A stretch of DNA of 64,000 nt from Candidatus Omnitrophota bacterium (GTDB lineage Bacteria; Omnitrophota; Gorgyraeia; Duberdicusellales; 4484-171), in contig PMCS01000008.1 in the NCBI GenBank assembly GCA_003154195.1, forward strand, positions 15,366 to 79,365, written 5' to 3'. Shown here in pieces: positions 1,425 to 63,930 of this stretch. Each line of letters starts with the position of its first letter. The first letter of the stretch is position 1. The notes under the pieces were generated by a model. That model was not told the DNA's origin, did no database searches, and worked only from the letters and a program-made list of their open reading frames with translations. The position numbers were made by a program, and so were the translations under genes.

Positions 1425-1645
1425 CTTTGCCAGCCTCGCATAGCTCGCCTTGCGGCGTCCGCCTCGGCGAGTCTTCGGCCCTCGGCTTCGCCGCGAGGCG
1501 AGCGAGACGGGAAGCCGAGGGCTCGTCTAGGCGGGCGCCTTGGCGGAAAAAAATATTTCCAATCTGAGAAAGTCAGCCGCTTAGGCGGCCATATAGACTA
1601 CACCTTGGACTTCCCCGGTACTCCGGGAAGTCTGTGGACAAAATT
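1425..1645. repeat. Two-module intergenic repeat, copy A (GC-rich module Y then double-hairpin module X)
   Basis: Y spans about 1425-1560 (ttgccagcctcgc...gaagccgagggctcgtctaggcgggcgcc...atatttcc). X spans about 1561-1645 (aatctgagaaagtcagccgcttaggcggccatatagactacaccttggacttccccggtactccgggaagtctgtggacaaaat). Both modules recur at 4555-4745 in the opposite order. Confidence 0.8.
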
Positions 1646-2113: not shown

Positions 2114-2195
2114 TGAGCCGGTTGCATAGTTAACAATGAATCTTTTAACACATTTAACGGGCTAAACTGGCTCAACCGGCCAAGCAGGCTAAACT
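2098..2195. repeat. Intergenic word-palindrome (cccgtt / gagccggtt family)
   Basis: Left arm cccgttgagtccattgagccggttg. Right arm taacgggctaaactggctcaaccggccaagcaggctaaac. Confidence 0.7.
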
Positions 2196-2198
2196 AAT

Positions 2199-3257: not shown

Positions 3258-4556
3258 TTAGTTTTTATTCCACTCCTCTTTATAAAAATAATACGCCTTT
3301 TTAAGGCGACGCAGGAATGGCGAGTTTTTGCCATCACCCTGGGAACAAACGCCGAGCCATTCGTCATTAACCCAGGCATCATTCATCGGCCCTTGCCAAG
3401 CGCCGATTACGGTATCGTGCTCATCAAGTTTGCCGCAAAACCACCAGCCGTCGAGCCAGTTATAGACAAAACCGCCGACCGAACAACCGCCGGAAGCGGC
3501 GGAATTTTTGGCCATATCGCGCCAGGCGCCTTTGTGGTAAAACGCCTGAAAATCTTCGTCTTCTTTTTGCTTACGGCTATCCCAGGAATCTCCGCCGTAT
3601 TCGGTGATCACCACGGCCCGGTCGAACCCGAAAAATTTTGGCTTACGGAACAGTGCGCCAAAGCCATACGGCCCGGTGTAACTGTTAAATCCTAAAAAAT
3701 CTATTGCCGGAGTATATTTTTTATAATAGGGCAACATCGCCTCAAGAGCGTTGCTTACGCCAACCGGATGATTTTTATCAAGTTGATGGATCATCTCGGC
3801 TACCTTGTTCACAAAGCGCGCGAATTCTCCCGGGCGCTGGCGGGCATTGGTATTGTTGAAAGTAGAATTTTCTTTACTGCCTACGGCGTCGTTTTCGTTG
3901 CCCAGCAGCCACATCAGGATATACGGCTCGTCTTTAAATTCAACAACCATCTTCCGGACGTCTTCAAGCATGCTCTCCAAATGCTTGGAGTTGGTATAGT
4001 CGGTCCCCTCTTCCCAGCTCGCGCCGGAACCACGCGTATAGGCGCCTAAAAAATTACCCATCATCACCATAATCCCGTATTTTTTATATAAATCGCGCAA
4101 CAATTCTTTATTGATGTTATCGGGATGATAAATCCGCAAGGTATTGGCGCCCATCTCTTTCATCAATTGAAAATCGCCCACCGCCGGTTCATCTTTATCC
4201 TGGATATTGTTTCCATTCTTGTCTACCCATGATTCATAGGCAACATCATTAATGCCGTTGTGGTTATAATCGTAATTCATCCACATATTGGACGCGGTAA
4301 GCCGCTCGCCGACCTTAATCGGGTCGGTGCATAATCCTTTAATAAAATAAGGATTATTGTCGACTAAAATCTGCCAGCCGCCGTTATCATACTTGACCAA
4401 TCGCACCCGGCCTTTACCCCGCTGTTCGACGATTTTTAGCTTTTGCGCGGGATAAGCCGCGGGAATCAAACCAACACCAAATATCCAACAACAAAAAAAA
4501 CTAAGAATAATCTTCATTTTTATATTTTCCATACCCTTTTTCTTAATCTGTAACAA
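3258..4556 (-). CDS. Secreted clan GH-A (TIM-barrel) glycoside hydrolase, GH2/GH5-like
   Basis: Signal peptide MKIILSFFCCWIFGVGLIPAAYPA, so the real start is probably about 4517. Acid/base LLGNEND and nucleophile VITEYGGDSW motifs. Confidence 0.5.
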   Translation of the reverse strand: MLQIKKKGMENIKMKIILSFFCCWIFGVGLIPAAYPAQKLKIVEQRGKGRVRLVKYDNGGWQILVDNNPYFIKGLCTDPIKVGERLTASNMWMNYDYNHNGINDVAYESWVDKNGNNIQDKDEPAVGDFQLMKEMGANTLRIYHPDNINKELLRDLYKKYGIMVMMGNFLGAYTRGSGASWEEGTDYTNSKHLESMLEDVRKMVVEFKDEPYILMWLLGNENDAVGSKENSTFNNTNARQRPGEFARFVNKVAEMIHQLDKNHPVGVSNALEAMLPYYKKYTPAIDFLGFNSYTGPYGFGALFRKPKFFGFDRAVVITEYGGDSWDSRKQKEDEDFQAFYHKGAWRDMAKNSAASGGCSVGGFVYNWLDGWWFCGKLDEHDTVIGAWQGPMNDAWVNDEWLGVCSQGDGKNSPFLRRLKKAYYFYKEEWNKN

Positions 4557-4745
4557 TCTGAGAAAGTCAGCCGCCTAAGCGGCCATATAGATTACACCTT
4601 GGACTTCCCCGGTACCCCGGGAAACCCGTGGACAAATTTTTAGGTTTTTCTTTGCTGACTTTGCCAGCCTCGCCTAGCTCGCCTCGCGGCGAAGCCGAGG
4701 GCTCGTCTAGGCGGGCGCCTTTGCGGGAAAATATTTTTCCTTCCC
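4555..4745. repeat. Two-module intergenic repeat, copy B (X then Y)
   Basis: X spans 4555-4640 and Y spans 4655-4745. Both are near-identical to 1561-1645 and 1425-1560 respectively, with the module order swapped. Confidence 0.8.
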
Positions 4746-4755
4746 TCACCTTCCA

Positions 4756-10826: not shown

Positions 10827-10839
10827 AGATTAATAAGTT

Positions 10840-10945
10840 TAGCCGGTTTTGCCGGTTGGGCACATTAACCGGTTAAGTAGGTTTAGCCGGTTAAATGATT
10901 TTTTAACTGGCTAAACCGGCTCAACCAGCTAAACCGGTGAAACAT
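10840..10945. repeat. Intergenic word-palindrome (ccggtt/aaccgg words)
   Basis: ttagccggttttgccggttgggc...ggtttagccggttaa ... ttaactggctaaaccggctcaaccagctaaaccggtg. Confidence 0.7.
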
Positions 10946-10948
10946 AGA

Positions 10949-17981: not shown

Positions 17982-18022
17982 ATTTTTACCTCCTAATTAA
18001 CGCAGATGATCACAGATAAAAA

Positions 18023-18358
18023 TCAGCGATCATCCCCGCCTTTAATCATCACTAACATCATTTTAAATCTCTTCGCCGCTTTTACGCTATGGAGTTTGCC
18101 GGCGGGAAGAATAATCGATTGGCTGCGGCTGACGCGAAAAAACTTCTTTTCGATAGAGATGAGCGCTTCCCCGTCCATAATGCTGATTAAAGCGTCAAAG
18201 GGAGCGGTATGTTCGCTTAAACCCTGCCCCCTATCGAAAGCGAACAAGGTAACCGTTCCGGCCTTACGGTTTATCATCGCCTGGCTGACAATCGAATCGC
18301 GTTCATAAGAAACGGAATCTTTTAAAGAAATCACTTTAGCGGAAAAATCTTTCTTCAT
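18023..18358 (-). CDS. Cupin-domain protein
   Basis: 111 aa. His/Glu-containing beta-barrel segment GQGLSEHTAPFDALISIMDGEALI. Confidence 0.55.
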   Translation of the reverse strand: MKKDFSAKVISLKDSVSYERDSIVSQAMINRKAGTVTLFAFDRGQGLSEHTAPFDALISIMDGEALISIEKKFFRVSRSQSIILPAGKLHSVKAAKRFKMMLVMIKGGDDR

Positions 18359-19923: not shown

Positions 19924-20466
19924 CTATTCCCGCGCCGGGAGCGCGGAAGGTTGCTCTGTGGGCTTCTTTTCTATAACCCTCAGCGAACTTTGAATCTGCG
20001 CCGACTTAAGCTGGTTCTTAATCTGCGTTATCTCCGATTCAATATTGGCCACTGTTTCCTTATTAAGTAAATCGACGCCGGCCTTTATCGCGTCTATTTT
20101 CTGAGTCGTTTCCAACAAAGCTTTAAAATAATCTTTCTGCCATGACTTGATGTCGTTTTCCAAATCGGTAATCTTCGAAGAAATATCATTGATTGTCGCT
20201 CGGTCGGATTTAAGCTTGATCTCCACGGCCGATAAAGAATCGGCGTATTTGGTAAATTTAGCGGCCAACTGAGCGATATTCTCCTTAAACGCGGAAAGTT
20301 GTTCCTGAAAAGAATCAACTTTTCCCTGCAAAGAAGCGGCCTGCCGGGAAAAATCTTCGTTGCGCCGGCCATAGTCTTTATAAAAGAAAACTGTAAACGC
20401 TATGCTTGCCGAAAGAGCGATAAACATTACCGCCAGGATAATGATTAAAACAATGTTTTTTTTCAT
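19924..20466 (-). CDS. Membrane-anchored coiled-coil protein
   Basis: N-terminal transmembrane helix followed by heptad-rich, low-complexity sequence. Confidence 0.35.
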   Translation of the reverse strand: MKKNIVLIIILAVMFIALSASIAFTVFFYKDYGRRNEDFSRQAASLQGKVDSFQEQLSAFKENIAQLAAKFTKYADSLSAVEIKLKSDRATINDISSKITDLENDIKSWQKDYFKALLETTQKIDAIKAGVDLLNKETVANIESEITQIKNQLKSAQIQSSLRVIEKKPTEQPSALPARE

Positions 20467-21323
20467 CTTATGGCCTCAACTATTTTTTTTATTACCTCTG
20501 CTTTATTTAACGTAAAGAAATGTAAAAACTTTACCCCGTTAGCCAAAAGGCCGCGGCACTGTTTTATGGTAAATTCTAAACCCGCCTTCTCCATTTCCTG
20601 CGGTTTATTTAAAAAAGGTTCGACTTGTTTTATGAGACTTTCGGGTATCGTAGTCCGGCAAATCGAAACAAACTGGCGAAGCTTATTCAAATCAGTCACC
20701 GGCATAATCCCCGGTACAATCGGAATGTTTATCCCGCGGCCACGGCACTTTTCATAAAAATTATGATAGAAAGTATTGTCAAAAAACATCTGCGTCACTG
20801 CGAATTCCGCCCCGCAATCTATTTTACGCCTTGTATAATCAAGGTCGGCCTCAAGCGACGCCGATTCGATATGGCCCTCGGGATACACCGCGACGCCGAT
20901 AGAAAAATTGCCGTATTGCTTTACGAACGAAACCAAATCCCGCGCATGAACAAATTCGCCTTTCGTAATATCAAAATCCGGCGCGTCGCGGGGGATATCC
21001 CCTCGTAACGCCATGATGTTTTCTATGCCTTTTGTCTTATACTCATCAAGCAAAGAATCGATTGACGATTTTGTCGCTCCGATGCAAGTCAAATGCGGCA
21101 TCACCACCCGGTCGGTTTCCTCCATAAACATATAGACCGCTTCCTTGGTCATTTCCTGGGAAGCCCCACCGGCGCCGTAAGTCATCGACATATATAACGG
21201 GTTATAATTTTTAAGCGCCCTGACCGCCTGCCGGAGCTGTTCCTTACCCTTAGGGGTTTTATACGGAAAAAACTCAAAAGATACTCCGCTTTTGTTATCT
21301 TTTAATATCTGGCTTATTCTCAT
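20463..21323 (-). CDS. metF: Methylenetetrahydrofolate reductase
   Basis: FEFFP...MTYGAGG and the MTHFR TIM-barrel length. Confidence 0.85.
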   Translation of the reverse strand: MRISQILKDNKSGVSFEFFPYKTPKGKEQLRQAVRALKNYNPLYMSMTYGAGGASQEMTKEAVYMFMEETDRVVMPHLTCIGATKSSIDSLLDEYKTKGIENIMALRGDIPRDAPDFDITKGEFVHARDLVSFVKQYGNFSIGVAVYPEGHIESASLEADLDYTRRKIDCGAEFAVTQMFFDNTFYHNFYEKCRGRGINIPIVPGIMPVTDLNKLRQFVSICRTTIPESLIKQVEPFLNKPQEMEKAGLEFTIKQCRGLLANGVKFLHFFTLNKAEVIKKIVEAIR

Positions 21324-21345
21324 ACTCCCCCTTTTAAACTCGGTA

Positions 21346-21600
21346 AAGGTTACGGTTATGATACCTGTTTAAGCTAGGATTAAGGTTAAAGCTAAGGCTA
21401 AGGCTTTAGGAATATCCCTGTCATTTTAAATTGGACATTGAACATTTATCAATTATCATTGAAAAAATTCTTTATTTTCAGCTTCTTTCATTTTAAAATG
21501 ATAAATGTCCAATGCTAAATTTAAAATCATATCTATTCTTGCCGACGCCCTAACCGTTACCCTTACCCATACCGGCTTCATAGCCCTAGCCTTAACCAAG
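21346..21600. repeat. Composite element: outer imperfect inverted repeat (ggttaa/gctaagg words) enclosing a core AT-rich hairpin repeat (21421-21530)
   Basis: Outer arms are 21346-21410 and 21547-21600, and the arm segment ccggcttcatagccct also occurs at 63895-63915. The core cattttaaattggacattgaacattt...aaatgtccaatgctaaatttaaaat has three other copies. Confidence 0.7.
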
Positions 21601-21612
21601 TATCGAACCTGA

Positions 21613-22968
21613 TTATGTCAAATGTAGATATGGTTTCCCCTCCGTCAACGGATTAAGGAAACGAGAAATCTCTAACGCGCCCTTACGTTCTTTTAAATTA
21701 ATTATTTCTTTTTTATCCGCAAGCACAATTGTTTCAACTATCGGCGAAAATATATCGTCGCCGTTTTCGTCCCTCACCACGGCAACCCTTCCATCGCTTA
21801 AAGCGACAAGCGCGCCTATCGGCCAGACGCCCATTACTTTAAAAAACTCATCAAAAAGCTTCGGCTCGAACAAACCCCCTTGTTCCTTAAGCATCGTTTC
21901 ATAGATAAGCTTCGGCGCGTAATCGCGCTTATAGCTGCGCCGCTGGCCCAACGCGTCGTAAACATCACAAAGGGTGACTAAAGAAGAAACCAAATGCGGT
22001 TTGTAAGAAAAGAATAACTTCGGGTAACCGGTTGAATCGTACCGGGCGTGATGCTCAAACGCGACAACCACCGGTAAAAAACCTAAACTGTCGGTATATC
22101 TTAAAAGAATCTCCGCACCAAGGTAGCTGTGGCTCTTCATCAAAGCAAATTCTTCATCGCTTAAGCGCGATTCCTTGCCGATAATTTTTCGGGAAATATC
22201 AACCTTGCCGATATCATGGAAAAGAGCGGCAATACCGATATCCACGACATCATCTTTGGAAAAACCGAGACGGGAAGAAAAATACATCGCTAAAACGCAA
22301 ACATTCAATAAATGCATAAAAGTAGAAACATCGTATTTTTTTATCGCGGTTAATTTAAGAAAATCACTGTACCGGGTCATGAGATTTTCCATAACATTCA
22401 CGATATTAAACCGTAGCTGGAGGTAATCAACGTCTTCCTGCCCCAAGATAAAATCCACGGAATCGGTAATACGGTCCAAAGAATCTTCGTATTTTTTGAA
22501 AGGGCCGGCCGCCTCCTTAGGCTCTTGCCCGGCTCCCTGGCGCGGCACGCCGCCTGACGGCGACGCCGTAATTTTTCCCACGCTGATGTTTTTGATGCCC
22601 AAAAGGCTCAAGTTTTGCGGATTCTTTTCAAAATTTACCGATTGCTCCGAAAGAAGGGAAAGAAATTTAATAAATTCCTGTTTATCTAATCCGCGGCAAA
22701 AGCTTATCCTCTCAATACCCCTGGCCTTTAAATAAAGAATCATACTGCGAAGTTTCTTGCTCAATTCAAAAAATATTTCCGTCTCATACGCCAGCTCTTC
22801 CCCCACAATCCCGAGGATCAGCTCATCCTTTTTCCGAAGAATATCGTCTAAATCGCCGAACGCTGTATCGGCAGATTCACTGAATTTAGGATGAGTGGTC
22901 GTATATATTTTAGCGATCTGAAATGCCGAGATGAAATTTTTTAAAAAAGTTTCAATCTTTTCCAGCAT
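21613..22968 (-). CDS. HD-GYP domain phosphodiesterase with an N-terminal domain shared with the upstream gene
   Basis: HD-GYP motifs LFHDIGK and EHHARYDSTGYP. Start taken at MLEKIETF (22968); the longer ORF to 23085 overlaps the upstream gene. Confidence 0.8.
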   Translation of the reverse strand: MLEKIETFLKNFISAFQIAKIYTTTHPKFSESADTAFGDLDDILRKKDELILGIVGEELAYETEIFFELSKKLRSMILYLKARGIERISFCRGLDKQEFIKFLSLLSEQSVNFEKNPQNLSLLGIKNISVGKITASPSGGVPRQGAGQEPKEAAGPFKKYEDSLDRITDSVDFILGQEDVDYLQLRFNIVNVMENLMTRYSDFLKLTAIKKYDVSTFMHLLNVCVLAMYFSSRLGFSKDDVVDIGIAALFHDIGKVDISRKIIGKESRLSDEEFALMKSHSYLGAEILLRYTDSLGFLPVVVAFEHHARYDSTGYPKLFFSYKPHLVSSLVTLCDVYDALGQRRSYKRDYAPKLIYETMLKEQGGLFEPKLFDEFFKVMGVWPIGALVALSDGRVAVVRDENGDDIFSPIVETIVLADKKEIINLKERKGALEISRFLNPLTEGKPYLHLT

Positions 22969-24886
22969 TCCACCTCTCCAGAAGTTTACGGGATTTGCGC
23001 CGCAGTCTCCATTTAAACAAAGATTTTGTTTTGCTGAAATCGTTGAGGTATCTTTCCGCCTCTCTGACGCCAAGCGCGGCGACAATATCGATATTCTCTT
23101 CTAAAATCCTATTTTTCAGCCCGAATTTATTGGGGTAGCAAAACATAAACCGCATTGCTTCCTCTATAAGTTTTGAATCTTTAGCTATAGCCGAAAGCGC
23201 CGCTTTCTTTAAAAGAAAACTCTCTTTTTTCAGAACCGAAAATAAAAAATCTGCGTCGCGAGCTTCGCTCTCCCCCATAATCCCCAATATCTCTATCTTG
23301 GCTAAATCATTCGTTAAATTAAAAATATTTTTGAAAAACTCCCGCGCCGAAGATGCGTTGACATCTTTTGCCGCACCGATAAGTTTTCTGATAAAAGCTG
23401 TATCGGAAATTTTCTCTCTTATTTTCTTTAAAAATAAGTCGCCATCGCTGCCGAAAAACTTAAAGAATAACCGCAGAATACGGGAATCAACCCTATTTTG
23501 TTTAAAAATCTTATCCAGATAGAATTCAACCCCCAAAGAGCTGACTGCCAGATGTTCACTTAAAAGTCCGGCTTGCCGGGTATCGCTGTTTTCCAGAACA
23601 TAATTTTCCAGAAAACAAGATAGTTTATTATAGAGAACGAAAAAAATATCCCCCGGTTGGCTGATTCCTTTATTTTTCTCGTTAAAAACAATCAGGCTTT
23701 GCGTTAGATAATCAATATTCCCGGTATTTATTATATTATCCCACTCATCGGAAATCTTTTTTAAGATAATATCGAGTTTAACGCGTTTATTTTCCTGAGC
23801 GAGAAGATTCAACAAAATACAACGGTAGTTGTCATAAAGGGTGGAACGTTCAAAAACAAAATCGTTGCGGGATTCCGGCTCTTCATAAAGCGAAGCAACA
23901 ACCTTGCGATAGATTCCGGAAATTACCGGCGAAAATTCGACGGATAGTAATTCTTTCATTTTTTTCCGCGCCGCCGTTTTATTTTTTATCGCGGGATGGC
24001 CGGCGGACTTAGCGGAAAAGGAAGCGGCTACGGTCTCCTGTTTCGTTTTATCCATAAGCTGGGCGAACAAGCCAAACGCCGTGGAATCAAAATTATCATC
24101 GCCGGTCAGCCCATCCCAAAGAGTATCCGCAAAATCATCCGCTTCAAAAGTATCTAAGATTTCTTTTATTTTGTTTACATTAGTTTCTCCCAGATTATTT
24201 TTATTTTTTATAATTAATTTAATAAAATCTTTCGAGCATTGGCTGAATTTATCCTTATGCTTGTCTTTTAGAAATAGGAAGAATTTCTTTAAAACATCTT
24301 TGAGCGCTTCCTTTTCTGTAAAATCTTTCAGCTTAAACTTTTCGATGATTGTGCCGAACTTATCGGCTAATTCGCCAATTTCTCCGGCGTTCTGGTTCTC
24401 CACCGCCTTATTGAGTAAATATCCCCAGATATCCTTATACTCCTCCCCCTCGCCTTTTAAAAACTGTGAATAATCCAATTCCTCCACGGTAATATTGTTA
24501 ATTTTATTTTTTCCAAGGATAAAAGCCATGCCTCCTTCCTTGAATGTATTCTTAGCGGACAAACCGACCGCGGATAAAAATAAATCCCACTCTTGCGCGG
24601 TTACGCCCTTTTTTATTTCCAGGCTTTTTATTTTCCGGGAATGAAAAAGTTGAGCCAGTTCTTCATATAGTTTTACCTTCTCCCAATACTGGCCATCAAT
24701 CATCAGAGAAGACGAAGTAAAACCTATTCTGATGGGGCAGGCAAATTCAAAAAGCGAATCGGTCTTTTTTCTTAGATCATCCACGGATTTGCGAAAAAGC
24801 GGATGCTCCGTGGAATAGACCGAAACATTATTGAGCGCCACCCGAAAACTTTTAAAAAATTCTTCGTAAGCGGTAGTTTTATCCAT
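22952..24886 (-). CDS. Large all-helical hypothetical protein; its N-terminal ~110 aa are paralogous to the HD-GYP protein N-terminus
   Basis: EEFFKSFRVALNNVSVYSTEHPLFRKSVDD... aligns with FLKNFISAFQIAKIYTTTHPKFSESADT... of the downstream gene (shared F.K.F, Y.T.HP.F, S.D, FLS positions). HEAT-like C-terminus. No tubulin/FtsZ GGGTGTG motif. Confidence 0.45.
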   Translation of the reverse strand: MDKTTAYEEFFKSFRVALNNVSVYSTEHPLFRKSVDDLRKKTDSLFEFACPIRIGFTSSSLMIDGQYWEKVKLYEELAQLFHSRKIKSLEIKKGVTAQEWDLFLSAVGLSAKNTFKEGGMAFILGKNKINNITVEELDYSQFLKGEGEEYKDIWGYLLNKAVENQNAGEIGELADKFGTIIEKFKLKDFTEKEALKDVLKKFFLFLKDKHKDKFSQCSKDFIKLIIKNKNNLGETNVNKIKEILDTFEADDFADTLWDGLTGDDNFDSTAFGLFAQLMDKTKQETVAASFSAKSAGHPAIKNKTAARKKMKELLSVEFSPVISGIYRKVVASLYEEPESRNDFVFERSTLYDNYRCILLNLLAQENKRVKLDIILKKISDEWDNIINTGNIDYLTQSLIVFNEKNKGISQPGDIFFVLYNKLSCFLENYVLENSDTRQAGLLSEHLAVSSLGVEFYLDKIFKQNRVDSRILRLFFKFFGSDGDLFLKKIREKISDTAFIRKLIGAAKDVNASSAREFFKNIFNLTNDLAKIEILGIMGESEARDADFLFSVLKKESFLLKKAALSAIAKDSKLIEEAMRFMFCYPNKFGLKNRILEENIDIVAALGVREAERYLNDFSKTKSLFKWRLRRKSRKLLERWNAGKD

Positions 24887-24907: not shown

Positions 24908-25000
24908 TAGAGTGTCATAGTGTCAAAGTATACCCCTTGTAGCGCTCCGACACTCCATCTGGCTCTCTGACACTTTGACGCTCTGACGCTTTCGCGCTCA
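24908..25000. repeat. Intergenic word-palindrome (catagtgtc / gacgctttg family)
   Basis: agagtgtcatagtgtcaaag ... ctctgacactttgacgctctgacgcttt. Paralogs at 47800-47878 and 32540-32605. Confidence 0.7.
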
Positions 25001-26143: not shown

Positions 26144-26157
26144 TTAACCCTTCACAA

Positions 26158-26268
26158 CCCCGTAGGGGCGAGGCCTGCCTCGCCCTATACTAAATAATTT
26201 TTAACATTATTTTCATCGGATAAATTGTTATTTTTATTAGAGGGCCGGGCAGGCCCGGCCCCTACTAT
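26158..26268. repeat. Intergenic palindromic element (cgtagggg...cccctac family)
   Basis: Arms ccgtagggg[cgaggcctgcctcg]ccctata and tagaggg[ccgggcaggcccgg]cccctacta. Each arm carries its own GC mini-palindrome. Confidence 0.7.
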
Positions 26269-26329
26269 TAATTATCTTTTCTATTTTTCTTTCGTCTTTC
26301 ATCTTTCATCCTTCGGTTTCTTCTCCTCT

Positions 26330-28051: not shown

Positions 28052-28183
28052 CGTAGGGGTCAGGCATGCCTGACCCGTTGATTTATATTTCAAAAATGTC
28101 AGATTTGAACAATCTGACGACAATCGATAAATTATTATTTTCCCGTATTTTATTAACGGGGCGGGCATGCCCGCCCCCTACAG
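28052..28183. repeat. Intergenic palindromic element (gtagggg...cccctac family)
   Basis: Arms gtagggg[tcaggcatgcctga]cccgtt and aacgggg[cgggcatgcccg]cccctac. The caggcATGcctg palindrome creates an ATG on both strands. Confidence 0.75.
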
Positions 28184-28184
28184 G

Positions 28185-32513: not shown

Positions 32514-32610
32514 GTATTAACCTAAATAATCTCTAAGCGCCAAAGTATCAGAGTGCCAGGGCGGTTCTTTAACTTTGACGCTTTGCCCTTTTGACGCTAT
32601 GATCCTTCCG

Positions 32611-35211: not shown

Positions 35212-35219
35212 TTTATTAT

Positions 35220-35430
35220 TTTTGTAATACAGATGATCGCGGATTAAAAATCAACAGATGATCACAGATAATTACCAAAAATTCCAAGCACCGAATAACA
35301 ATTAAATACCAACAACCAGAATTCTAATGACCTGGACAAAAACCGATTAAGTCATCCGGTAATTGAAATTTATAATTTAATTATCTTATCAGCGATCATC
35401 AGCTTCTTCTAATCTGCGATCATCTGCGTT
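35220..35430. repeat. Intergenic repeat built from gatcatc/cagatgatc words
   Basis: The segment atcttatcagcgatcatcagct...aatctgcgatcatctgcg matches 56903-56962. A shorter relative lies at 17990-18045. Confidence 0.65.
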
Positions 35431-36511: not shown

Positions 36512-36540
36512 AAATTTATTATATTTGAATGATTGCTATC

Positions 36541-36624
36541 GGTTACTAAAGGTTACAAAAGGTTGTAAAGCCCCCGGCAACCGTTAGTAACCAATAGCAA
36601 CCAGCAGTAACCTTTAGTAACCAT
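36541..36624. repeat. Intergenic word-palindrome (ggttac/gtaacc words)
   Basis: ggttactaaaggttacaaaaggttg ... cagtaacctttagtaaccatt. Confidence 0.7.
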
Positions 36625-37991: not shown

Positions 37992-38039
37992 AATTTTTAT
38001 TTCTTACTGCGTAAAAAATAAATAACGATAATTGCGTAG

Positions 38040-38112
38040 AAACGGGCACCCGTGCCTGTCCTTTATTATTTAATATTTCATCATTGAGTAAGGGGGGGGC
38101 CGCCCCTACTGC
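38040..38112. repeat. Intergenic palindromic element (acggg...cccctac family)
   Basis: aacgggcacccgtgcc ... ggggggggccgcccctac. Confidence 0.6.
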
Positions 38113-38120
38113 ATATTTGA

Positions 38121-43361: not shown

Positions 43362-44285
43362 TCAAAACTCGGCCTTTTTGAATTTTCTTTCAATATAGCC
43401 GACATCTTTGGCAATCGCTTCTTTAAGCGCGGCGAGAGAAGAAAATCTCTTTTCTTCCCGTATCTTCTGGAAAAAATATACCTTGATTTGTTTCCCCAGA
43501 ATATTCCCGTGAAAATTAAGAAGGTGGGCTTCGATGATTATTTTTTTTGCCGTGGTGACGGTAGGATTTGTCCCGATGTTAACCACGCACAAATATTTTC
43601 TTTTATTAAATTCCGCGGCGGCGGCATAAACGCCGCTCGCAGGGATAACATAAGCGCCCGTGAAAACATTTGCCGTGGGAAAACCTAATTTTCTACCGAT
43701 GCCCCTGCCCTTAATGACGATCCCTTTTAAAGAATAGTTTCTTCCTAAAAGAACGTCGGCACCGGCAAAATCGCTGCGTTTTATCAAATGCCGGATAAGC
43801 GAACTGCTGATTACCCGGCCCTTATTTTTCATTTTCTTTATGACCAGAAAGTCAAAATTATGCTCCCGGGCAAAACCGCGCAGGCAATTTACGTTATTTT
43901 GCGCGCCGGCGCCGAAACGGAAATCCTCCCCCACAATTATTTTTTTAATATCAAAATATTTTAGGATATAAACGATAAACTCTTTCCCGGAAAGCCGGAA
44001 GAGATTCCTCCGTGATTTTAAAAACCAGATGTTAGCGATACCTAAAGATTCGACGATATTTTTTTTATCTTCGCAATCACAGAGACAACCGCCGAAAGGT
44101 TTGTTTAAAATAATACGGGGAGATTTGTCGAAAGTAATCAGCAGGCTGGCTGCCTTTAATCGGGCTGCCTCTGCCTTTACTTTTCTCAGGATAAATTGAT
44201 GCCCGCGGTGTATCCCATCAAAAACGCCGATGGTAGCAACGCATGGCACCCGTCTATAAGGCAGCTTTTTGTAAACAACTCTCAT
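43362..44285 (-). CDS. ribF: Bifunctional riboflavin kinase / FMN adenylyltransferase
   Basis: GVFDGIHRGHQ adenylyltransferase motif and a C-terminal riboflavin kinase domain. Confidence 0.9.
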   Translation of the reverse strand: MRVVYKKLPYRRVPCVATIGVFDGIHRGHQFILRKVKAEAARLKAASLLITFDKSPRIILNKPFGGCLCDCEDKKNIVESLGIANIWFLKSRRNLFRLSGKEFIVYILKYFDIKKIIVGEDFRFGAGAQNNVNCLRGFAREHNFDFLVIKKMKNKGRVISSSLIRHLIKRSDFAGADVLLGRNYSLKGIVIKGRGIGRKLGFPTANVFTGAYVIPASGVYAAAAEFNKRKYLCVVNIGTNPTVTTAKKIIIEAHLLNFHGNILGKQIKVYFFQKIREEKRFSSLAALKEAIAKDVGYIERKFKKAEF

Positions 44286-44925
44286 CTATGTTTTCAGGAT
44301 TAAACGCGTCGCTAAGTTTGAAATGGCCGACGCTTAAGCGCTTTATATGGATCATATGCGCGCCGCAACCCAGGACATCACCGATATCTTCAGCAAGCTT
44401 GCGAATATAAGTACCCTTGGAACAACGCACGTAAAATTCAACCAACGGCGGGTCTATTTTTAAAATTTCTATCGCGTAGATTTTAATTCTGCGAGGGTCT
44501 CTCTCGATAGTTATACCCTTACGGGCCAAGTCGTATAAACGTTTGCCTTTAACTCTTAAGGCGCTGACCATGGGAGGTATCTGGTCTATTTCGCCCACAA
44601 AAGAAGCAAAAACTTCCCTGATTTTTTCTTCGGTTACACCGCCAAACCCGCTGGAACGCAGAACTTTGCCTTGCGAATCTCCGGTAGAAGTAACCTCGCC
44701 TAATTTCAAAATACCCACATATTCTTTATCGAAATGAACGAATTTGGAAAATAGTTTAGTGGAACTGCCTACCAGAATAATCAAAAGGCCTTCGGCTAAA
44801 GGATCGAGGGTACCGGCATGTCCCACGCGCTTAATCGCTAATTTCCTGCGCACGATATCAACAACATCATGGCTGGTAATACCCTGGGGCTTATTGACTA
44901 AGATGATCCCTTCTTTATTAACCAT
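44254..44925 (-). CDS. truB: tRNA pseudouridine(55) synthase
   Basis: GHAGTLDPLAEG catalytic motif. Confidence 0.9.
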   Translation of the reverse strand: MVNKEGIILVNKPQGITSHDVVDIVRRKLAIKRVGHAGTLDPLAEGLLIILVGSSTKLFSKFVHFDKEYVGILKLGEVTSTGDSQGKVLRSSGFGGVTEEKIREVFASFVGEIDQIPPMVSALRVKGKRLYDLARKGITIERDPRRIKIYAIEILKIDPPLVEFYVRCSKGTYIRKLAEDIGDVLGCGAHMIHIKRLSVGHFKLSDAFNPENIDESCLQKAAL

Positions 44926-44982
44926 GCAAACCTGTAATTATTTGAGTAGCCGGGGATTACCTGCTTTCAAATATTCTCCCTA

Positions 44983-45088
44983 TCATTTTAAATTGAACAT
45001 TGAACATTTGCCAATGATCATTGAAAGAATTAATTATTTTTCTCTTCTTCCATTTTAAAATGATAATTAATCAATGCTAAATTTAAAA
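44983..45088. repeat. Core AT-rich hairpin repeat, copy 2
   Basis: tcattttaaattgaacattgaacatttg...cattttaaaatgataattaatcaatgctaaatttaaaat. Confidence 0.75.
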
Positions 45089-45113
45089 TTAACCTGGCTA
45101 TCTGAGGGTTTAG

Positions 45114-46082
45114 CTATTTCTTCTTATACCCATTTTTGTAAATATAGGCGTGTTTTTTTACAAAAGAAATGACTTTATCTTCTATCGCCTTAAGATTGCC
45201 CTCGACGGTAGTACCGCTGGCCCGTCGATGCCCGCCGCCGCCGAAAAATTTGGCGATTTTGTTGACATCGACGTACTCGCGGGAACGGAAATTAACTCTT
45301 ACTTTATTGGCGCTGATTTGTTTAAAAATCATAAATACTTCAACACCCTTCAACAACCGCATGATGGAAAAAATAATCTCGGTGAGGTCAAAACCTTTGT
45401 CCTCCCATTTGTCGGCGGCAACCCAGCAAATTTTACGCGACATATCAAGTTTCAAGCTCGCCATAAGGCCGGTAATAAGTTTTAAATCATGGATCTCGCA
45501 GGCGCTATGGATATTCTCGAATACCCTGTTGGGTTTGATATTATGCTTCATTAAATCAGCGATAATTTTATGCACCCGGGAATCGGCGCTGCTGAAGGTA
45601 AAATTTCCCGTATCGGTAGCGATGCCGGTATAAAGGCATAACGCTATCTCGTCATCCATCACGCCGAATTGCCGGCAAAGCTCATAAAGCAACTGGCAAG
45701 CGGAACTGGCCTGCGGCGCAATCCAATTTATATCGCCGAAGTAAGTATTACTGATGTGATGGTCGATGTTGACAATGCAATCGGCGCAACCCAGGGAATC
45801 CTTGACCTTCCCCGTGCGGGAAGAATCGGAACAGTCTAAAACTATTACCGTGTCAAAACGCTCTTTCCTGAAGGTATTTTTTATCATCCGGCTGGAAGGA
45901 AGAAATTTATAGATATCGGGAACCGCGTCGTTAAGGTAAAGCACAGCTCTCTTTTTAAGCTTCTTAAGGAGAGCGTACATAGCCAATGCCGAGCCGAGAG
46001 CGTCGCCTTCGACATTCATATGCGTAGTAATAAGAAAACTCCGGCTTGATTTTATTTTATTTATTATCTTCTTTATTATCAT
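45114..46082 (-). CDS. DHH/DHHA1 phosphoesterase (NrnA-like oligoribonuclease/pAp phosphatase)
   Basis: HMNVEGDALGS, DHH and C-terminal GGGH (DHHA1). Start taken at MIIKKI. Confidence 0.75.
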   Translation of the reverse strand: MIIKKIINKIKSSRSFLITTHMNVEGDALGSALAMYALLKKLKKRAVLYLNDAVPDIYKFLPSSRMIKNTFRKERFDTVIVLDCSDSSRTGKVKDSLGCADCIVNIDHHISNTYFGDINWIAPQASSACQLLYELCRQFGVMDDEIALCLYTGIATDTGNFTFSSADSRVHKIIADLMKHNIKPNRVFENIHSACEIHDLKLITGLMASLKLDMSRKICWVAADKWEDKGFDLTEIIFSIMRLLKGVEVFMIFKQISANKVRVNFRSREYVDVNKIAKFFGGGGHRRASGTTVEGNLKAIEDKVISFVKKHAYIYKNGYKKK

Positions 46083-46446
46083 CTTCCTGCTTCCGCTCCT
46101 CCGCGCGGCGCGCGTCTTCGCTGCGCACCTCATCTATCTTTTTGCAAATATCCACGCTATATTTTATCGAATCGTCGGGTATAAACTTAAGCTGCGGGAC
46201 AATGCGTAAACTTATCTTCTTAGCCATACTTGCCCTTAAGAAACCATTCATTTTCCTCAGTATCTCGCTTACTTTTTTATAATTATTGTCATTAAGCAGG
46301 CTGAAAAAAACTTTGCTTTCCTGTAAATCGCCGGTTGTCTCCACCCGCGTTATCGATAAAAGTGTAGCCGCCGGGTCATCAACCTGCGACTGGATTACTT
46401 CCATAAGCGCTTTCTGTATCTGGCTGTTTATTTTTTCTATTCTCAT
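46057..46446 (-). CDS. rbfA: Ribosome-binding factor A
   Basis: RbfA KH-like fold sequence with an acidic/basic tail. Confidence 0.8.
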   Translation of the reverse strand: MRIEKINSQIQKALMEVIQSQVDDPAATLLSITRVETTGDLQESKVFFSLLNDNNYKKVSEILRKMNGFLRASMAKKISLRIVPQLKFIPDDSIKYSVDICKKIDEVRSEDARRAEERKQEDDNKEDNK

Positions 46447-48765: not shown

Positions 48766-48770
48766 AAATT

Positions 48771-58221: not shown

Positions 58222-58458
58222 TTACTTTTTGGCCTTTGTTTCGATGTATTTAACCGCTTCACCGACGGTAGTTATTTTTTCCGCATCTTCATCGGGAATT
58301 TCTACGCCGAATTCCTCCTCCAGAGCCATCACCACTTCTACGGTATCAAGAGAATCGGCGCCTAAATCGTCAATAAAAGAGCTCTCTTGTTTTATTTCTT
58401 CTTTTTTCACGCCCAACTGCTCGGAAATAATATCCTTAACTCTGTCTTCAACGCTCAT
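58222..58458 (-). CDS. acpP: Acyl carrier protein
   Basis: Phosphopantetheine site LGADSLD. Confidence 0.9.
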
Positions 58459-58499
58459 TGATGACCTCCTTGTGTAATATGTTTCGTATTATCATATTC

Positions 58500-58566
58500 T
58501 TTACCATTGCAAATTGAACATTTACCATTTTAAAATGATACTTGTCCAATGTTAAATTTAAAATTA
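58500..58566. repeat. Core AT-rich hairpin repeat, copy 3 (truncated)
   Basis: attgcaaattgaacatttaccattttaaaatgatacttgtccaatgttaaatttaaaat. Confidence 0.65.
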
Positions 58567-58576: not shown

Positions 58577-59311
58577 TTATACCATTCCCCCGTCTACCAA
58601 TAATACCTGCCCCGTAATATAATCGGCGTCGCGGGATGCTAAAAACGCTACCGCATTTGCCACATCCACCGGCTCGCCTAATTTAGCCAGAGGAATCCTT
58701 TTCAGCATCTCCTCTTTTACTTTTTGGTCAAGCTTATCGGTCATCGCTGTTTTTATATATCCGGGAGCAACAGCGTTGACGTTAATATTCCTTGAGCCCA
58801 ACTCTTTTGCCAATGATTTAGTAATACCAATCAAGCCGGCTTTGGAAGCCGCGTAATTAACCTGACCGGCATTGCCCATCACTCCTATCACCGATGAAAT
58901 ATTGATAATCTTTCCGTAGCGCTGTTTAACCATATATTTGATAACCGCTTTCGCGCAGTTAAACGCGCCCTTCAGATTAACCGCGATAACCTTATCCCAA
59001 TCGCTTTCGCTCATTCTCAAGATAAGGCCGTCTCGCGTAATACCCGCATTGTTTACTAATATATCAACTCTCGTCCAGTTGTCAATAATTTTATTGATAT
59101 TTTTCTCGACTTCTCCCAGATTGGTAACATCAACCTTATAGCCCTCGGCCGCGGTAAGCTCTTTCAATTCGTTAACCGTGGCCGCCAGAATTTCATCATT
59201 AACGTCAAAAATGATTACTTTCGCCTTCTCTTTCGCGAATAAAAAAGCTATTTCTCTGCCGATTCCCTGGGCGCCGCCGGTAACCACGGCTACTTTATCC
59301 TGAAAGCGCAT
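58577..59311 (-). CDS. fabG: 3-oxoacyl-ACP reductase
   Basis: SDR motifs TGGAQGIG and YxxxK. Confidence 0.9.
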   Translation of the reverse strand: MRFQDKVAVVTGGAQGIGREIAFLFAKEKAKVIIFDVNDEILAATVNELKELTAAEGYKVDVTNLGEVEKNINKIIDNWTRVDILVNNAGITRDGLILRMSESDWDKVIAVNLKGAFNCAKAVIKYMVKQRYGKIINISSVIGVMGNAGQVNYAASKAGLIGITKSLAKELGSRNINVNAVAPGYIKTAMTDKLDQKVKEEMLKRIPLAKLGEPVDVANAVAFLASRDADYITGQVLLVDGGMV

Positions 59312-59321: not shown

Positions 59322-59405
59322 TATTTTAAATTGAACATTGAGCATTTGTCATTTTAAATTTGTGAAAAACGATAAATGCTCAATGCCAAATGATAAATTT
59401 AAAAT
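59322..59405. repeat. Core AT-rich hairpin repeat, copy 4
   Basis: ttattttaaattgaacattgagcatttgtcattttaaatt...gataaatgctcaatgccaaatgataaatttaaaatg. Confidence 0.7.
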
Positions 59406-59423: not shown

Positions 59424-60320
59424 TCACAGCGCTTCGATATCTTCCTTCTTTTCTATATTAACGACCTTGATCTCCGGGTTAATCTTACGAATAAGCCCTT
59501 TCAGAATTTTAGACGGGCCAATCTCATACATCATGCTGACGCCGCGGCTTACCATAAAATCCACGCAGTCTTTCCAAAGCACCGGCGAAGTCAACTGCTC
59601 GATAAGGTTTCGCTTGATCTCATCTTTATCGGTATGGGCTTTAGCCGTAAAATTGCTCACAATCGGTATTTTTGCGTCATTAAACGCAAGGGAATCGATA
59701 ACTTTTTGCAGACGAACGCGGGCAGGCAGGATGAAGGGGGAATGAAACCCTCCGCTGACTTCCAGTTCTACCACTTTAGCCCCCATGCCCTCAAGCAAAG
59801 ATTTAATCTTAGCTATGTTTTCTCTCTTCAATGATATAACGATCTGCTGCCCGGAATTGATATTGGCAAGATAAAAACCCACCTGTTTGCTCTTTTCTTC
59901 CAACGCGGCGCGGTCAATGCCCATAACGGCAAGCATGCCGGAATGGGAATTCTGCGCCGCCTCCTGCATCGCCAATGCCCTTTCTTTTACTAATCGCAAA
60001 AGGTCGTCAAGATTTAAAACATCGGCCGCGTACAAACAAGTATACTCGCCCAGGCTCAAACCGGAAAGATAATCGATTTTTATATTTTTTTCCCGGAACA
60101 ACTCGTAAGTAACCACGCAAACCGATAAAATAGCTAATTGCTGATAGTACGTCTGCTTAAGTTCCTGTTCGCTGCCGTTGGAGCAAACCTTAGAGATACC
60201 GATATCCAATACCTTATCAATGCGACAGAGCAACTCTTTAGCCCGGGGGTAGTGATCAAAGATATTCTGCCCCATTCCTTTATATTGGGCGCCCTGCCCG
60301 GGAAAAACTATCGCGTTCAT
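59424..60320 (-). CDS. fabD: Malonyl-CoA:ACP transacylase
   Basis: FPGQGAQ and GLSLGEY active-site serine motif. Confidence 0.9.
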   Translation of the reverse strand: MNAIVFPGQGAQYKGMGQNIFDHYPRAKELLCRIDKVLDIGISKVCSNGSEQELKQTYYQQLAILSVCVVTYELFREKNIKIDYLSGLSLGEYTCLYAADVLNLDDLLRLVKERALAMQEAAQNSHSGMLAVMGIDRAALEEKSKQVGFYLANINSGQQIVISLKRENIAKIKSLLEGMGAKVVELEVSGGFHSPFILPARVRLQKVIDSLAFNDAKIPIVSNFTAKAHTDKDEIKRNLIEQLTSPVLWKDCVDFMVSRGVSMMYEIGPSKILKGLIRKINPEIKVVNIEKKEDIEAL

Positions 60321-63799: not shown

Positions 63800-63930
63800 A
63801 AACGGTTAGGGTAATGGTAAGGAAGCCTGTTTGGGTTATGGTAAAGGTTATGGCTGAAAATTCGTATCAGCCCTGGCCATTGCCTTAACCCAAACCGGCT
63901 TCATAGCCCTAACCCTGACCTTAACTCTAT
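63800..63930. repeat. Intergenic word-palindrome (ggttagg/ggttatgg words); paralog of the outer arms of the 21346-21600 element
   Basis: ggttagggtaatggtaaggaagcctgtttgggttatggtaaaggttatggctg ... cagccctggccattgccttaacccaaaccggcttcatagccctaaccctgacc. Confidence 0.7.

What the first reader, a model, noticed from the sequence alone, without database searches (positions are those of the whole stretch)
21346..21600. Roughly 110-bp AT-rich hairpin element in four copies, one nested inside a different palindromic element
The core cattttaaattgaacattgaacattt...aaatgttcaatgctaaatttaaaat occurs at 21421-21530, 44983-45088, 58500-58566 (truncated) and 59322-59405. The copy at 21421-21530 sits exactly at the centre of a larger inverted repeat. 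That larger repeat's arms (ggttaaggcta.../...ccggcttcatagccct...) have a paralog without the insert at 63800-63930. This is the signature of one MITE-like element having inserted into another.
Basis: seen in the sequence. Interest (0 to 1): 0.55.

Follow-up and report, generated by a model that had tools for sequence, protein, structure and literature searches.

The report
AT-rich hairpin repeat between genes
A small family of non-coding, AT-rich hairpin repeats has been copied into the gaps between housekeeping genes of an uncultivated peat bacterium (Omnitrophota), once into the tip of another hairpin repeat; it is a new example of a known kind of bacterial "selfish or regulatory" intergenic repeat rather than a new kind of system.

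Summary
Four related AT-rich palindromes lie at 21423-21527, 44985-45089, 58505-58564 and 59323-59405. The arm 25-mer matches 7 times against 0 expected. All four sit in spacers between co-oriented housekeeping genes (upstream of metF, truB, acpP and fabG).

The first copy lies at the apex of a larger hairpin. That hairpin has a true paralogue without the insert at 63804-63920.

Syntenic Omnitrophota relatives have tight junctions (0-47 bp) where this genome has 112-188 bp, so the elements are gained DNA. More family members turned up in peat metagenomes, in unrelated spacers.

The MITE label is not earned:
- no target-site duplication;
- no transposase in 84 kb;
- the whole element is a palindrome whose arms are degenerate 7-nt tandem arrays.

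It is one of many hairpin-repeat families (units of 6-10 nt, some nested or mosaic) that fill about half of the spacers of this genome.

Best reading: a REP/BIME-like dispersed palindromic repeat, copied without a duplication of the target and carried inside operon transcripts as an AU-rich stem-loop. Its function is inferred, not shown. It is a new member of a known kind, of moderate interest.

The parts
21415..21527 (-). Copy c1 of the AT-rich palindromic repeat (full-length form). Palindrome 21423-21527, plus an 8-nt tail TCCCTRTC shared with c2. It sits at the apex of the outer hairpin, upstream of metF.
   Evidence: D5, I5; sense RNA -34.2 kcal/mol, z -6.4; nhmmer E 3.5e-31.
44977..45089 (-). 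Copy c2 (full-length form), in the nrnA-truB spacer.
   Evidence: In relatives nrnA and truB overlap or are 4 bp apart.
58505..58564 (-). Copy c3, an internally deleted form, in the fabG-acpP spacer. It has a diverged orthologue in the closer relative L036.
59323..59405 (-). Copy c4, short subfamily, in the fabD-fabG spacer. It ends directly at the fabG ribosome-binding site (AAGGAG).
   Evidence: (z -4.3/-5.1). Absent from L036, which has a different hairpin at that site.
21545..21602 (-). Outer hairpin, 5' arm on the transcribed strand (GGTTAAGGCTAGGGCTATGAAGCCGG...; GGTTAGGG-type 6-nt units).
21342..21405 (-). Outer hairpin, 3' arm on the transcribed strand.
63804..63920 (-). Paralogue of the outer hairpin without an insert (9-nt loop), in the rsmD-coaD spacer. 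That spacer is 5 bp long in relatives.
   Evidence: I1; z -5.9.
20463..21323 (-). metF (methylenetetrahydrofolate reductase), the gene downstream of c1.
21613..23085 (-). HD-domain protein gene upstream of c1 (longest ORF; the true start is probably later).
44254..44925 (-). truB, the gene downstream of c2.
45114..46133 (-). nrnA-like DHH/DHHA1 gene upstream of c2.
58223..58459 (-). acpP (acyl carrier protein), the gene downstream of c3.
58577..59311 (-). fabG, downstream of c4 and upstream of c3.
59424..60320 (-). fabD, the gene upstream of c4.

Best explanation
The element is a lineage-specific family of non-coding, dispersed palindromic repeats. It works like REP/BIME/REPIN-type repeats and like the 'inverted heptamer-repeat pairs' of Xanthomonas. 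The host is an uncultivated Candidatus Omnitrophota bacterium from peat.

Shown:
- Each copy is an 83-113-nt (c3, internally deleted, ~60 nt) AT-rich hairpin whose arms are degenerate arrays of 7-nt units (CATTnnn).
- Copies share sequence through the loop while their flanks are unrelated, so they arose by copying.
- They sit only in spacers between co-oriented genes.
- Those spacers are 0-47 bp long in syntenic relatives.
- One copy occupies the apex of a hairpin of another family, which has an insert-free paralogue.
- A full-length form and a short form each have several dispersed members.
- One copy (c3) predates a speciation event; another (c4) is younger.

Inferred:
- The element spreads through a hairpin or single-strand intermediate that leaves no target-site duplication. 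Candidates are a trans-acting HUH/Y1-type enzyme, as for REPs, or template switching at hairpins.
- It lands preferentially in spacers and hairpin loops. This builds the nested and mosaic hairpins seen all over this genome.
- Once resident, it is transcribed inside the operon mRNA as a long AU-rich stem-loop. There it can affect processing, decay or coupling of the flanking cistrons.
- Its downstream end also offers a sigma-70-like TTGNNA-N18-TAAAAT, which could feed transcription into the next gene.

Any cellular function is secondary and unproven.
For: Family and significance.

Extra members in unrelated spacers: L059 pth|rpsF, L068, L056 lepA|lepB, L047, L043. L059 and L068 share other repeat families with the window.

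Hairpin potential.

7-nt periodicity: lag-7 autocorrelation 0.51-0.59 against 0.33 in shuffles, p<=0.0005; TRF.

Gain relative to relatives:
- fabD-fabG: 112 bp against 35-47 bp.
- fabG-acpP: 117 against 46.
- nrnA-truB: 188 against 0-4.
- rsmD-coaD: ~168 against 5.
 The relative L087 lacks both hairpins upstream of metF.

Nesting and paralogue.

Age structure: c3 has a diverged orthologue in L036, with its hairpin kept through three G.U-compatible changes. c4 is absent there.

Orientation: all 4 full-length copies and c3 have the same orientation relative to their genes.

Strand asymmetry: the gene-sense strand folds better in 6 of 10 copies and clearly worse in 1. This includes L056, which is inverted. 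G.U pairs number 24 on the sense strand against 12 on the antisense.

Same architecture elsewhere in the window: mean spacer 99 bp against 30-52 bp in relatives.

No coding capacity is conserved (sequence). No Rfam family matches.
Against: - No mobilising enzyme was found in the 84 kb on hand, and the rest of the genome could not be read.
- No truly empty site with alignable flanks was found. Relatives are too diverged, and seven population contigs are identical. The insertion boundaries and mechanism therefore stay inferred.
- The copy number seen is small: 4 in 84 kb.
- The sense/antisense folding asymmetry also appears in coding controls and is statistically weak.
- Promoter-like hexamers are expected in AT-rich DNA, and the spacing is broken in c3 and L068.
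- Closely related genomes carry different hairpins at the same junction (L036 fabD-fabG, L070 upstream of truB). This could also mean fast in-situ turnover rather than insertion.
Confidence: 0.6

Rival explanations
1. Classical MITE: a deletion derivative of an insertion sequence, moved by that IS's DDE transposase in trans. It would be recognised by its terminal inverted repeats and leave a target-site duplication. c1 would be a MITE inserted into another MITE.
For: It is small and non-coding, with identical inverted termini ATTTTAAATT/AATTTAAAAT. Copies are dispersed with unrelated flanks. One copy is nested and an insert-free paralogue exists. A 2-bp AT duplication would be invisible, because AT is both the terminus and self-complementary.
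Against: No duplication of 3 bp or more flanks any of nine copies. No transposase lies in 84 kb. The element is palindromic along its whole length and made of 7-nt units, unlike an IS remnant. No hit in plasmid records, and only a chance AT-rich hit in viral contigs.
Confidence: 0.15
2. The primary identity is a cis-acting RNA or regulatory module selected at each site: an operon-internal processing or stability stem-loop (for example an RNase III site), or a portable promoter. Copying between sites would be incidental.
For: All copies lie between co-oriented genes, and 7 of 8 orientable copies share one orientation. The gene-sense strand folds better and carries more G.U pairs, even in the inverted copy L056. 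The c3 orthologue in L036 keeps a hairpin through G.U-compatible changes. TTGATA/TTGGCA/ATGACA-N18-TAAAAT faces the downstream gene in c1, c2, c4 and L059. Promoter-like sites number 8 against 1.4 expected around c1.
Against: Relatives express the same genes without it, from overlapping or 4-47-bp junctions. The neighbouring genes are unrelated. No covariation could be shown: 1 compensatory pair in 33. There is no terminator signature and no Rfam match. The strand asymmetry also appears in coding controls.
Confidence: 0.15
3. Hairpins grown in place: replication slippage of short units plus quasi-palindrome correction (intramolecular template switching) enlarges small spacer hairpins. The copies would resemble each other because the same simple unit arises repeatedly.
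For: Arms are degenerate tandem arrays that differ between copies by whole 7-nt units. About half of the spacers here have such a hairpin, with units of 6-10 nt. Close relatives have different units at the same junction. Similar (nnnCATT)n arrays occur in many phyla.
Against: c1, c2, L059 and L068 share 72-90% identity (c1, c2 and L059 86-90%) over 105-113 nt, including the non-repetitive purine-rich loop and an asymmetric tail. The short form likewise has three ~82% identical dispersed members. Convergence does not explain this. Slippage probably shapes the copies after they arrive.
Confidence: 0.05
4. Operator sites of one transcription factor: a shared regulon motif and not a repeat element.
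For: The sequence is palindromic and lies upstream of genes, two of them in the fatty-acid synthesis cluster.
Against: The other neighbours are metF, truB, rpsF, lepB and a transporter gene. The conserved length of 83-113 nt far exceeds an operator. It is absent from relatives with the same gene clusters.
Confidence: 0.03

Closest known systems
REP / BIME / REPIN sequences of Proteobacteria (with their RAYT/TnpA-REP Y1 transposases; PMC3333891, PMC3116915, PMC8266576)
   Same: Non-coding extragenic palindromes between co-oriented genes. They are dispersed in families, leave no target-site duplication, and occur as inverted doublets that form one long hairpin (REPIN). They combine into mosaics (BIME) and are carried in operon transcripts, where they can affect mRNA fate.
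   Different: These copies are AT-rich, not GC-rich. Arms are 45 nt, not 20-40 nt. There is no GTAG/CGTC tag. The arms are 7-nt tandem arrays. The copy number seen is low, and no RAYT is in the sequence on hand. The same window does hold separate GC-rich, GTAG-tagged REP-like doublets (for example 26144-26329 and 53585-53700), so this family is distinct from the genome's REP-like set.
Inverted pairs of heptameric simple repeats: GGGAATC in Xanthomonas, GGGGATT/STRR in Nostoc (PMC4692102)
   Same: Intergenic arrays of a 7-nt unit. In 70-75 cases per Xanthomonas genome two arrays lie in convergent orientation, so they can form a stem-loop. Length varies between relatives while the type of repeat is kept.
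   Different: Those units are G-rich and were studied as quadruplex formers. Here the unit is AT-rich (CATTnnn) and degenerate. A specific loop and termini are shared between copies, which shows copying of the whole element.
Bacterial MITEs such as Correia/NEMIS (Neisseria), ERIC/IRU, RUP, BOX and Nezha (named from my own knowledge; not compared by sequence here)
   Same: About 100-150 bp, non-coding, with inverted termini, intergenic and co-transcribed with neighbours. Some carry promoter elements and are cut by RNase III (Correia).
   Different: MITEs have target-site duplications (TA for Correia) and a recognisable parent IS or transposase. Neither was found here.
Repetitive hairpin-forming elements that invade intergenic regions of sponge mitochondrial genomes (PMC2800124), and GC clusters of yeast mitochondria (the latter from my own knowledge)
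   Same: Several families of short hairpin elements colonise the spacers of an otherwise compact genome in one lineage but not in its relatives.
   Different: A different genetic system (organelles), unrelated sequences, and a mechanism that is equally unknown.

Membership tests
MITE | Small (<~500 bp) and non-coding | tested here: met
   60-113 bp. The only ORFs are short and not conserved between copies.
MITE | Terminal inverted repeats | tested here: met
   ATTTTAAATT.../...AATTTAAAAT. However, the whole element is a palindrome (45-nt arms, 78% complementary), not only its ends.
MITE | Target-site duplication flanking each copy | tested here: not met
   No direct repeat of 3 bp or more flanks c1-c4, L059, L068, L056, L047 or L043. 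A 2-bp AT duplication cannot be told apart from the terminus.
MITE | Multiple dispersed copies with unrelated flanks | tested here: met
   4 copies in 84 kb, plus 4 close members (L059, L068, L056, L047) and one distant member (L043) in metagenome contigs.
MITE | Cognate autonomous IS or transposase with the same ends | tested here: inconclusive
   None in the window or its 10-kb extensions. The rest of the genome was not available.
MITE | Presence/absence polymorphism with a recognisable empty site | tested here: inconclusive
   Relatives at 68-82% protein identity have short junctions without the element, but the flanks do not align. Seven population contigs are identical.
REP / REPIN / BIME | Extragenic, mostly between co-oriented or convergent genes, with no target-site duplication | tested here: met
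REP / REPIN / BIME | 20-40-nt GC-rich imperfect palindrome with a conserved GTAG or CGTC tag (PMC3733652) | tested here: not met
   AT-rich (22-35% G+C in the spacers), 45-nt arms, no GTAG/CGTC tag.
REP / REPIN / BIME | A RAYT (Y1/HUH transposase) gene in the genome, flanked by the repeats | not testable with these tools
   Only 84 kb of the genome could be read and it holds none. The MAG GCA_003154645.1 cannot be fetched here.
REP / REPIN / BIME | High copy number (tens to hundreds per genome) | tested here: inconclusive
   4 per 84 kb. Three of the metagenome copies (L059, L068, L056) are probably from the same or a sister genome. No genome-wide count was possible.
Inverted pairs of heptameric simple repeats (Xanthomonas GGGAATC type) | Arms are tandem arrays of a 7-nt unit in convergent orientation, in intergenic DNA | tested here: met
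   Lag-7 and lag-14 autocorrelation peaks, p<=0.0005. TRF finds period 7 at 44992-45008 and 59363-59398.
Inverted pairs of heptameric simple repeats (Xanthomonas GGGAATC type) | G-rich unit able to form a quadruplex | tested here: not met
   The unit is CATTnnn, with no G runs.
Intrinsic (Rho-independent) terminator | GC-rich stem followed by a run of T | tested here: not met
   0 terminator-like sites around all four copies. The stems are AU-rich and followed by GACAGGG, GATAGGG or AAGGAG.
Any curated RNA family (Rfam 15) | Match at the gathering score | tested here: not met
   No match in the whole window. Only far sub-threshold chance hits, including plant microRNA hairpin models for c1.

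The most novel reading that the evidence does not exclude
The AT-rich element would be one visible member of an undescribed propagation process in one Omnitrophota lineage. In it, hairpin modules built of short (6-10 nt) tandem units insert without target duplication into spacers, and preferentially into the apical loops of resident hairpins. They would so build nested, mosaic hairpins that now occupy about half of the operon junctions and turn over faster than synonymous sites. This would be either a new class of mobile DNA or a new self-amplifying mutational mechanism for intergenic growth.
Probability: 0.15. Interest if true: 0.65.

Novelty: new member of a known kind. Interest (0 to 1): 0.35.

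Why it matters
As a single family it adds one more small palindromic repeat to a long list, in a phylum (Omnitrophota) where I found none described in two literature searches.

The context is more useful than the element. Two or more sister lineages with the same gene order have overlapping or 4-50-bp junctions. This genome carries 100-290-bp hairpin-filled spacers at the same places, with several families, nesting and mosaics. That gives a clean natural comparison for two questions:
- how hairpin repeats invade compact operons without breaking them;
- whether they are tolerated parasites or are used for mRNA processing or promoter supply.

Public metatranscriptomes from the same peat sites, if they exist for these samples, would make the second question directly testable.

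Tried and rejected
1. Genome-contig scan with ATTTTAAATTNNNCATTGNNCATTT. It gave 25 single hits and none in this species. Most are unrelated (nnnCATT)n heptamer arrays in other phyla, which the period-7 pattern itself selects. Two hits in a high-GC Planctomycetota MAG (L017, L031) look similar but sit in an unrelated genome. This was of no use for a copy census.

2. Search for an empty site.
- 10 contigs with identical TruB and 7 with identical MetF all carry the same spacer, with no polymorphism.
- Relatives found through FabG, TruB and MetF homologues lack the elements, but their flanks do not align.
- Target-site duplication therefore could not be tested against a true empty site.

3. Covariation. 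RNAalifold on the four full-length copies gave 1 compensatory pair of 33. The copies are too similar to be informative.

4. Sense against antisense folding as a test for RNA-level selection. The family shows the bias, but random coding segments do too. Across all hairpin families the G.U excess is only 80 against 58. I kept this as weak evidence only.

5. Rfam at gathering and at permissive thresholds found nothing meaningful.

6. Other collections. No match in plasmids. The viral contig scan gave 5 hits; the one with the family's spacing (L086) was read and is a chance match in AT-rich phage coding DNA, and the other four were not inspected.

7. Conserved target motif next to the element, as for IS200/IS605-type insertion. 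The flanks show no fixed tetra- or pentanucleotide.

8. Small-peptide reading. A 24-codon ORF in c1 is not conserved in c2 (sequence), so it was rejected.

9. IHF-site and LexA-box look-alikes, judged by eye. No consistent match, so they were dropped.

10. Transcription-factor operator reading. Rejected on gene content and element length.

Full report
**1. What is in the sequence**

- c1 is at 21423-21527. Homology with c2 starts 8 nt earlier, at 21415.
- c2 is at 44985-45089.
- c3 is at 58505-58564.
- c4 is at 59323-59405.

c1 has two 45-nt arms that are 78% complementary, around a 15-nt loop. The arm consensus ATTTTAAATTKARCATTGRRCATTT, with up to 3 mismatches, matches seven arms. No match occurred in any of 100 dinucleotide-preserving shuffles.

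c1 and c2 are 86% identical over 113 nt. That stretch includes the non-palindromic, purine-rich loop and an asymmetric 8-nt tail (TCCCTRTC on the + strand). Beyond it the flanks are unrelated (family D5). This rules out chance, and it rules out convergence of a simple motif.

**2. Genes and host**

Every gene in the window is on the minus strand, and so is nearly every gene called in the 10-kb extensions on either side. The copies lie in these spacers:
- c1: HD-domain gene | metF
- c2: nrnA | truB
- c3: fabG | acpP
- c4: fabD | fabG

 Source names on FabG, TruB and MetF homologues identify the host as Candidatus Omnitrophota. The same DNA is on ENA contig ERZ27256924:k141_7580617 (280 kb) and in NCBI MAG GCA_003154645.1.

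The neighbouring genes have no common function. Additional copies sit next to rpsF, lepB and a transporter gene. A shared operator is therefore not a sensible reading.

**3. Architecture**

The arms are not unique sequence. They are degenerate tandem arrays of a 7-nt unit. On the transcribed strand they read GATTTTA|AATTTAG|CATTGGA|CATTTAT|CATTTTA ... TGATAAT|TGATAAA|TGTTCAA|TGTCCAA|TTTAAAA.

Autocorrelation peaks at lags 7 and 14, at 0.51-0.59 against 0.33 in shuffles (p<=0.0005). TRF reports period 7 in c2 and c4. Copies differ from each other, and one arm from the other, by whole 7-nt units.

Folded as RNA, the gene-sense strand gives long AU-rich stem-loops:
- c1: -34.2 kcal/mol, z -6.4
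- c4: -24.9, z -4.3
- c2: -24.4, z -2.4
- c3: -13.7, z -2.7

 None has a terminator signature, since no GC-rich stem with a T run was found around any copy. No Rfam family matches, at gathering or at permissive thresholds.

**4. The nested copy**

c1 is centred at 21475. It sits at the centre of an outer inverted repeat (21342-21405 / 21545-21602, centre about 21473). The outer arms are 6-nt unit arrays.

With c1 deleted in silico the outer arms still form a hairpin (-58.9 kcal/mol, z -4.45). This is comparable with the hairpin at 63804-63920 (-56.2, z -5.9).

The two outer hairpins are true paralogues. On the transcribed strand the 5' arms are about 80% identical over about 52 nt, including 20 identical bases (ACCGGCTTCATAGCCCTA on the + strand). 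The 3' arms are about 70% identical. A third fragment of this family is on metagenome contig L068.

**5. Are these insertions?**

Syntenic relatives were fetched through FabG, TruB and MetF homologues. They keep the gene order coaD-yceD-rpmF-plsX-fabH-fabD-fabG-acpP-fabF-leuCD... and rbfA-nrnA-truB-ribF-mraZ... However, their junctions are tight.

| Junction | Relatives | This genome |
|---|---|---|
| fabD-fabG | 35-47 bp | 112 bp |
| fabG-acpP | 46 bp | 117 bp |
| nrnA-truB | overlapping or 4 bp | 188 bp |
| rsmD-coaD | 5 bp | ~168 bp |

 At least two separate relative lineages (L071; L037/L072, L039, L041) share the compact state, so parsimony says this lineage gained the DNA. A 71%-identical MetF relative has neither c1 nor the outer hairpin. 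nhmmer finds no family member in any of these relatives.

A closer relative, L036, is more informative. Its FabG is 93% identical in protein, and the 1.8-kb locus aligns with the window at 82.6% DNA identity.
- Its fabG-acpP spacer holds a diverged orthologue of c3. A hairpin is retained, and three stem substitutions are all compatible with G.U pairing on the sense strand.
- Its fabD-fabG spacer holds a different hairpin (unit CTAAAGT) and no c4.

 The family therefore placed copies both before and after that speciation. Likewise L070 (82% TruB identity) has another tandem unit upstream of truB.

**6. Other members and copy number**

The single metagenome scan matched all four window copies by design. 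It returned 27 stretches, of which five hold further members:
- L059: full length, about 88-90% identical to c1 and c2, in the pth|rpsF spacer.
- L068: full length.
- L056 and L047: short form, about 82% identical to c4.
- L043: a distant copy, in a 36% G+C genome.

A sixth stretch, L053, simply carries c3 and c4 themselves.

L059 and L068 also share other repeat families with the window, so they probably come from the same or a sister genome. The short form is thus a subfamily with its own dispersed copies and not a one-off deletion.

Within the 84 kb of this genome that I could read there are only the four copies. A genome-wide count was not possible.

All four full-length copies, and c3, have the same orientation relative to their genes. 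Of the short forms, two agree and one (L056) is inverted.

**7. Why not a MITE**

- No direct repeat of 3 bp or more flanks any of nine copies, and no conserved target motif is seen.
- No transposase is encoded in the window or its extensions. The only recombinase is a XerC-like integrase in a conserved position.
- The element is palindromic over its whole length and repetitive inside.

The features that are met (small, non-coding, inverted ends, dispersed) are shared with REP/REPIN/BIME elements, which leave no duplication. The defining REP features are not met either: these copies are not GC-rich 20-40-mers and carry no GTAG/CGTC tag. A RAYT gene could not be looked for. I therefore describe how the element behaves (REP/BIME-like) without filing it in either family.

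**8. Context that changes the reading**

Roughly half of all gene junctions in the window, 36 of 66, have spacers of 80 bp or more. Most of these hold a long hairpin whose arms are arrays of a 6-10-nt unit. The hairpins fall into several multi-copy families:
- GCCGGTTGA type: 2114, 10827, 54769, 55370
- GCGTCAGA type: 24908, 32514, 47785
- CAGATGATC type: 35212, 56765, 17997
- GGTTAGGG type: 21346, 63800
- GGTTACT type: 36512
- GGGATTGG type: 48766

 Two further spacers are compound hairpins with unrelated inner hairpins (35212-35428, 56765-56960). Two others share modules in swapped order (1131-1657, 4557-4755).

The mean spacer is 99 bp here, against 30-52 bp in the syntenic relatives. The relatives have only occasional hairpins of the same CAGATGATC unit family, at other junctions.

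The closest published architecture I found is the convergent pairs of GGGAATC heptamer arrays in Xanthomonas intergenic regions (PMC4692102). The closest behaviour is REP/BIME/REPIN (PMC3333891, PMC3116915). Two literature searches for such repeats in Omnitrophota found nothing.

**9. How it most likely works**

Shown:
- duplicative spread of a hairpin-forming, non-coding module into spacers that were ancestrally tight;
- one insertion at a hairpin apex;
- persistence across a speciation event, with the hairpin retained.

Inferred:
- Spread goes through a hairpin or single-strand intermediate that makes no target duplication. Candidates are a trans-acting HUH-type enzyme or template switching.
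- After arrival, slippage adds or removes 7-nt units.
- In the cell the element is part of the operon transcript.

The gene-sense strand folds better in 6 of 10 copies, including the inverted copy L056, and carries 24 G.U pairs against 12 on the antisense. This hints at constraint on the RNA. However, coding controls show a similar strand bias, and the excess over all hairpin families is only 80 against 58. I rate this as weak.

A TTGATA/TTGGCA/ATGACA-N18-TAAAAT faces the downstream gene in c1, c2, c4 and L059. The spacing is lost in c3 and L068, and such matches are easy to get in AT-rich DNA.

Function is therefore a hypothesis: an operon-internal stem-loop that affects processing or decay, and possibly a supply of promoters.

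**10. Verdict**

The moderately interesting part is the lineage-specific filling of operon junctions by many such hairpin families.

Noticed in passing
window 2114-2198, 10827-10948, 24908-24997, 32514-32610, 36512-36623, 47785-47877, 48766-48888, 54769-54880, 55370-55492: Most long spacers hold a hairpin whose two arms are complementary tandem arrays of a 6-10-nt unit (GCCGGTTGA, GCGTCAGA, GGTTACT, GGGATTGG and others), in several multi-copy families. The mean spacer is 99 bp, against 30-52 bp in syntenic relatives.
   Followed up: partly
window 35212-35428 and 56765-56960 (fragment at 17997-18027); L037 8962-9065 and 13620-13712: Compound hairpins. The outer arms are of the CAGATGATC-unit family (85% complementary between the two loci) and enclose unrelated inner hairpins. 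The same unit family occurs without inserts at other junctions in relatives with ~80% FabG identity.
   Followed up: partly
window 26144-26329, 28068-28184, 37992-38120, 53585-53700: GC-rich hairpins beginning GTAGGGGC(G/C)GG..., mostly as two inverted copies per spacer. They look like GTAG-tagged REP/REPIN doublets, which suggests the genome also has a classical REP system, and perhaps a RAYT gene elsewhere.
   Followed up: no
window 1401-1645 and 4554-4702: Two spacers share an 86-nt module (1560-1645 / 4554-4639, 91% identical, two predicted stem-loops) and a GC-rich module, in swapped order. This is a mosaic arrangement, and no Rfam match was found.
   Followed up: partly
L011-L035 (genome-contig hits), especially L031 180-290 and L017 357-381: Arrays of (nnnCATT)n heptamers preceded by CATTTTAAATT occur in MAGs of Bacteroidota, CPR groups, Cyanobacteria and Planctomycetota. 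L031 is a hairpin made of such units in a high-GC Planctomycetota contig. The search pattern itself has period 7 and selects for these arrays, so this is only a lead.
   Followed up: partly
window 1-64000 plus L080 and L081: All genes in the window, and nearly all in the two 10-kb extensions, are on one strand. They include the dcw cell-wall cluster, the fab cluster, leu genes and several toxin-antitoxin pairs (VapBC at 732-1331, HEPN/nucleotidyltransferase at 49523-50540).
   Followed up: no
L036 1-127 and L070 1-43: Closer relatives (93% FabG, 82% TruB) also have expanded spacers at the same junctions, but with different tandem units (CTAAAGT hairpin; GAAAT units). The occupant of a junction therefore turns over faster than the coding sequence diverges.
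   Followed up: partly
L053 2037-2458: This metagenome contig carries the acpP-proximal copy twice in inverted orientation, with small indels. It is probably an assembly chimera at the hairpin and not biology.
   Followed up: no
window 63921-63945: The insert-free outer-family hairpin is followed on the transcribed strand by TTTTTT and then directly by the coaD start codon, with no evident ribosome-binding site. It is terminator-like in form although it sits inside a conserved gene cluster.
   Followed up: no
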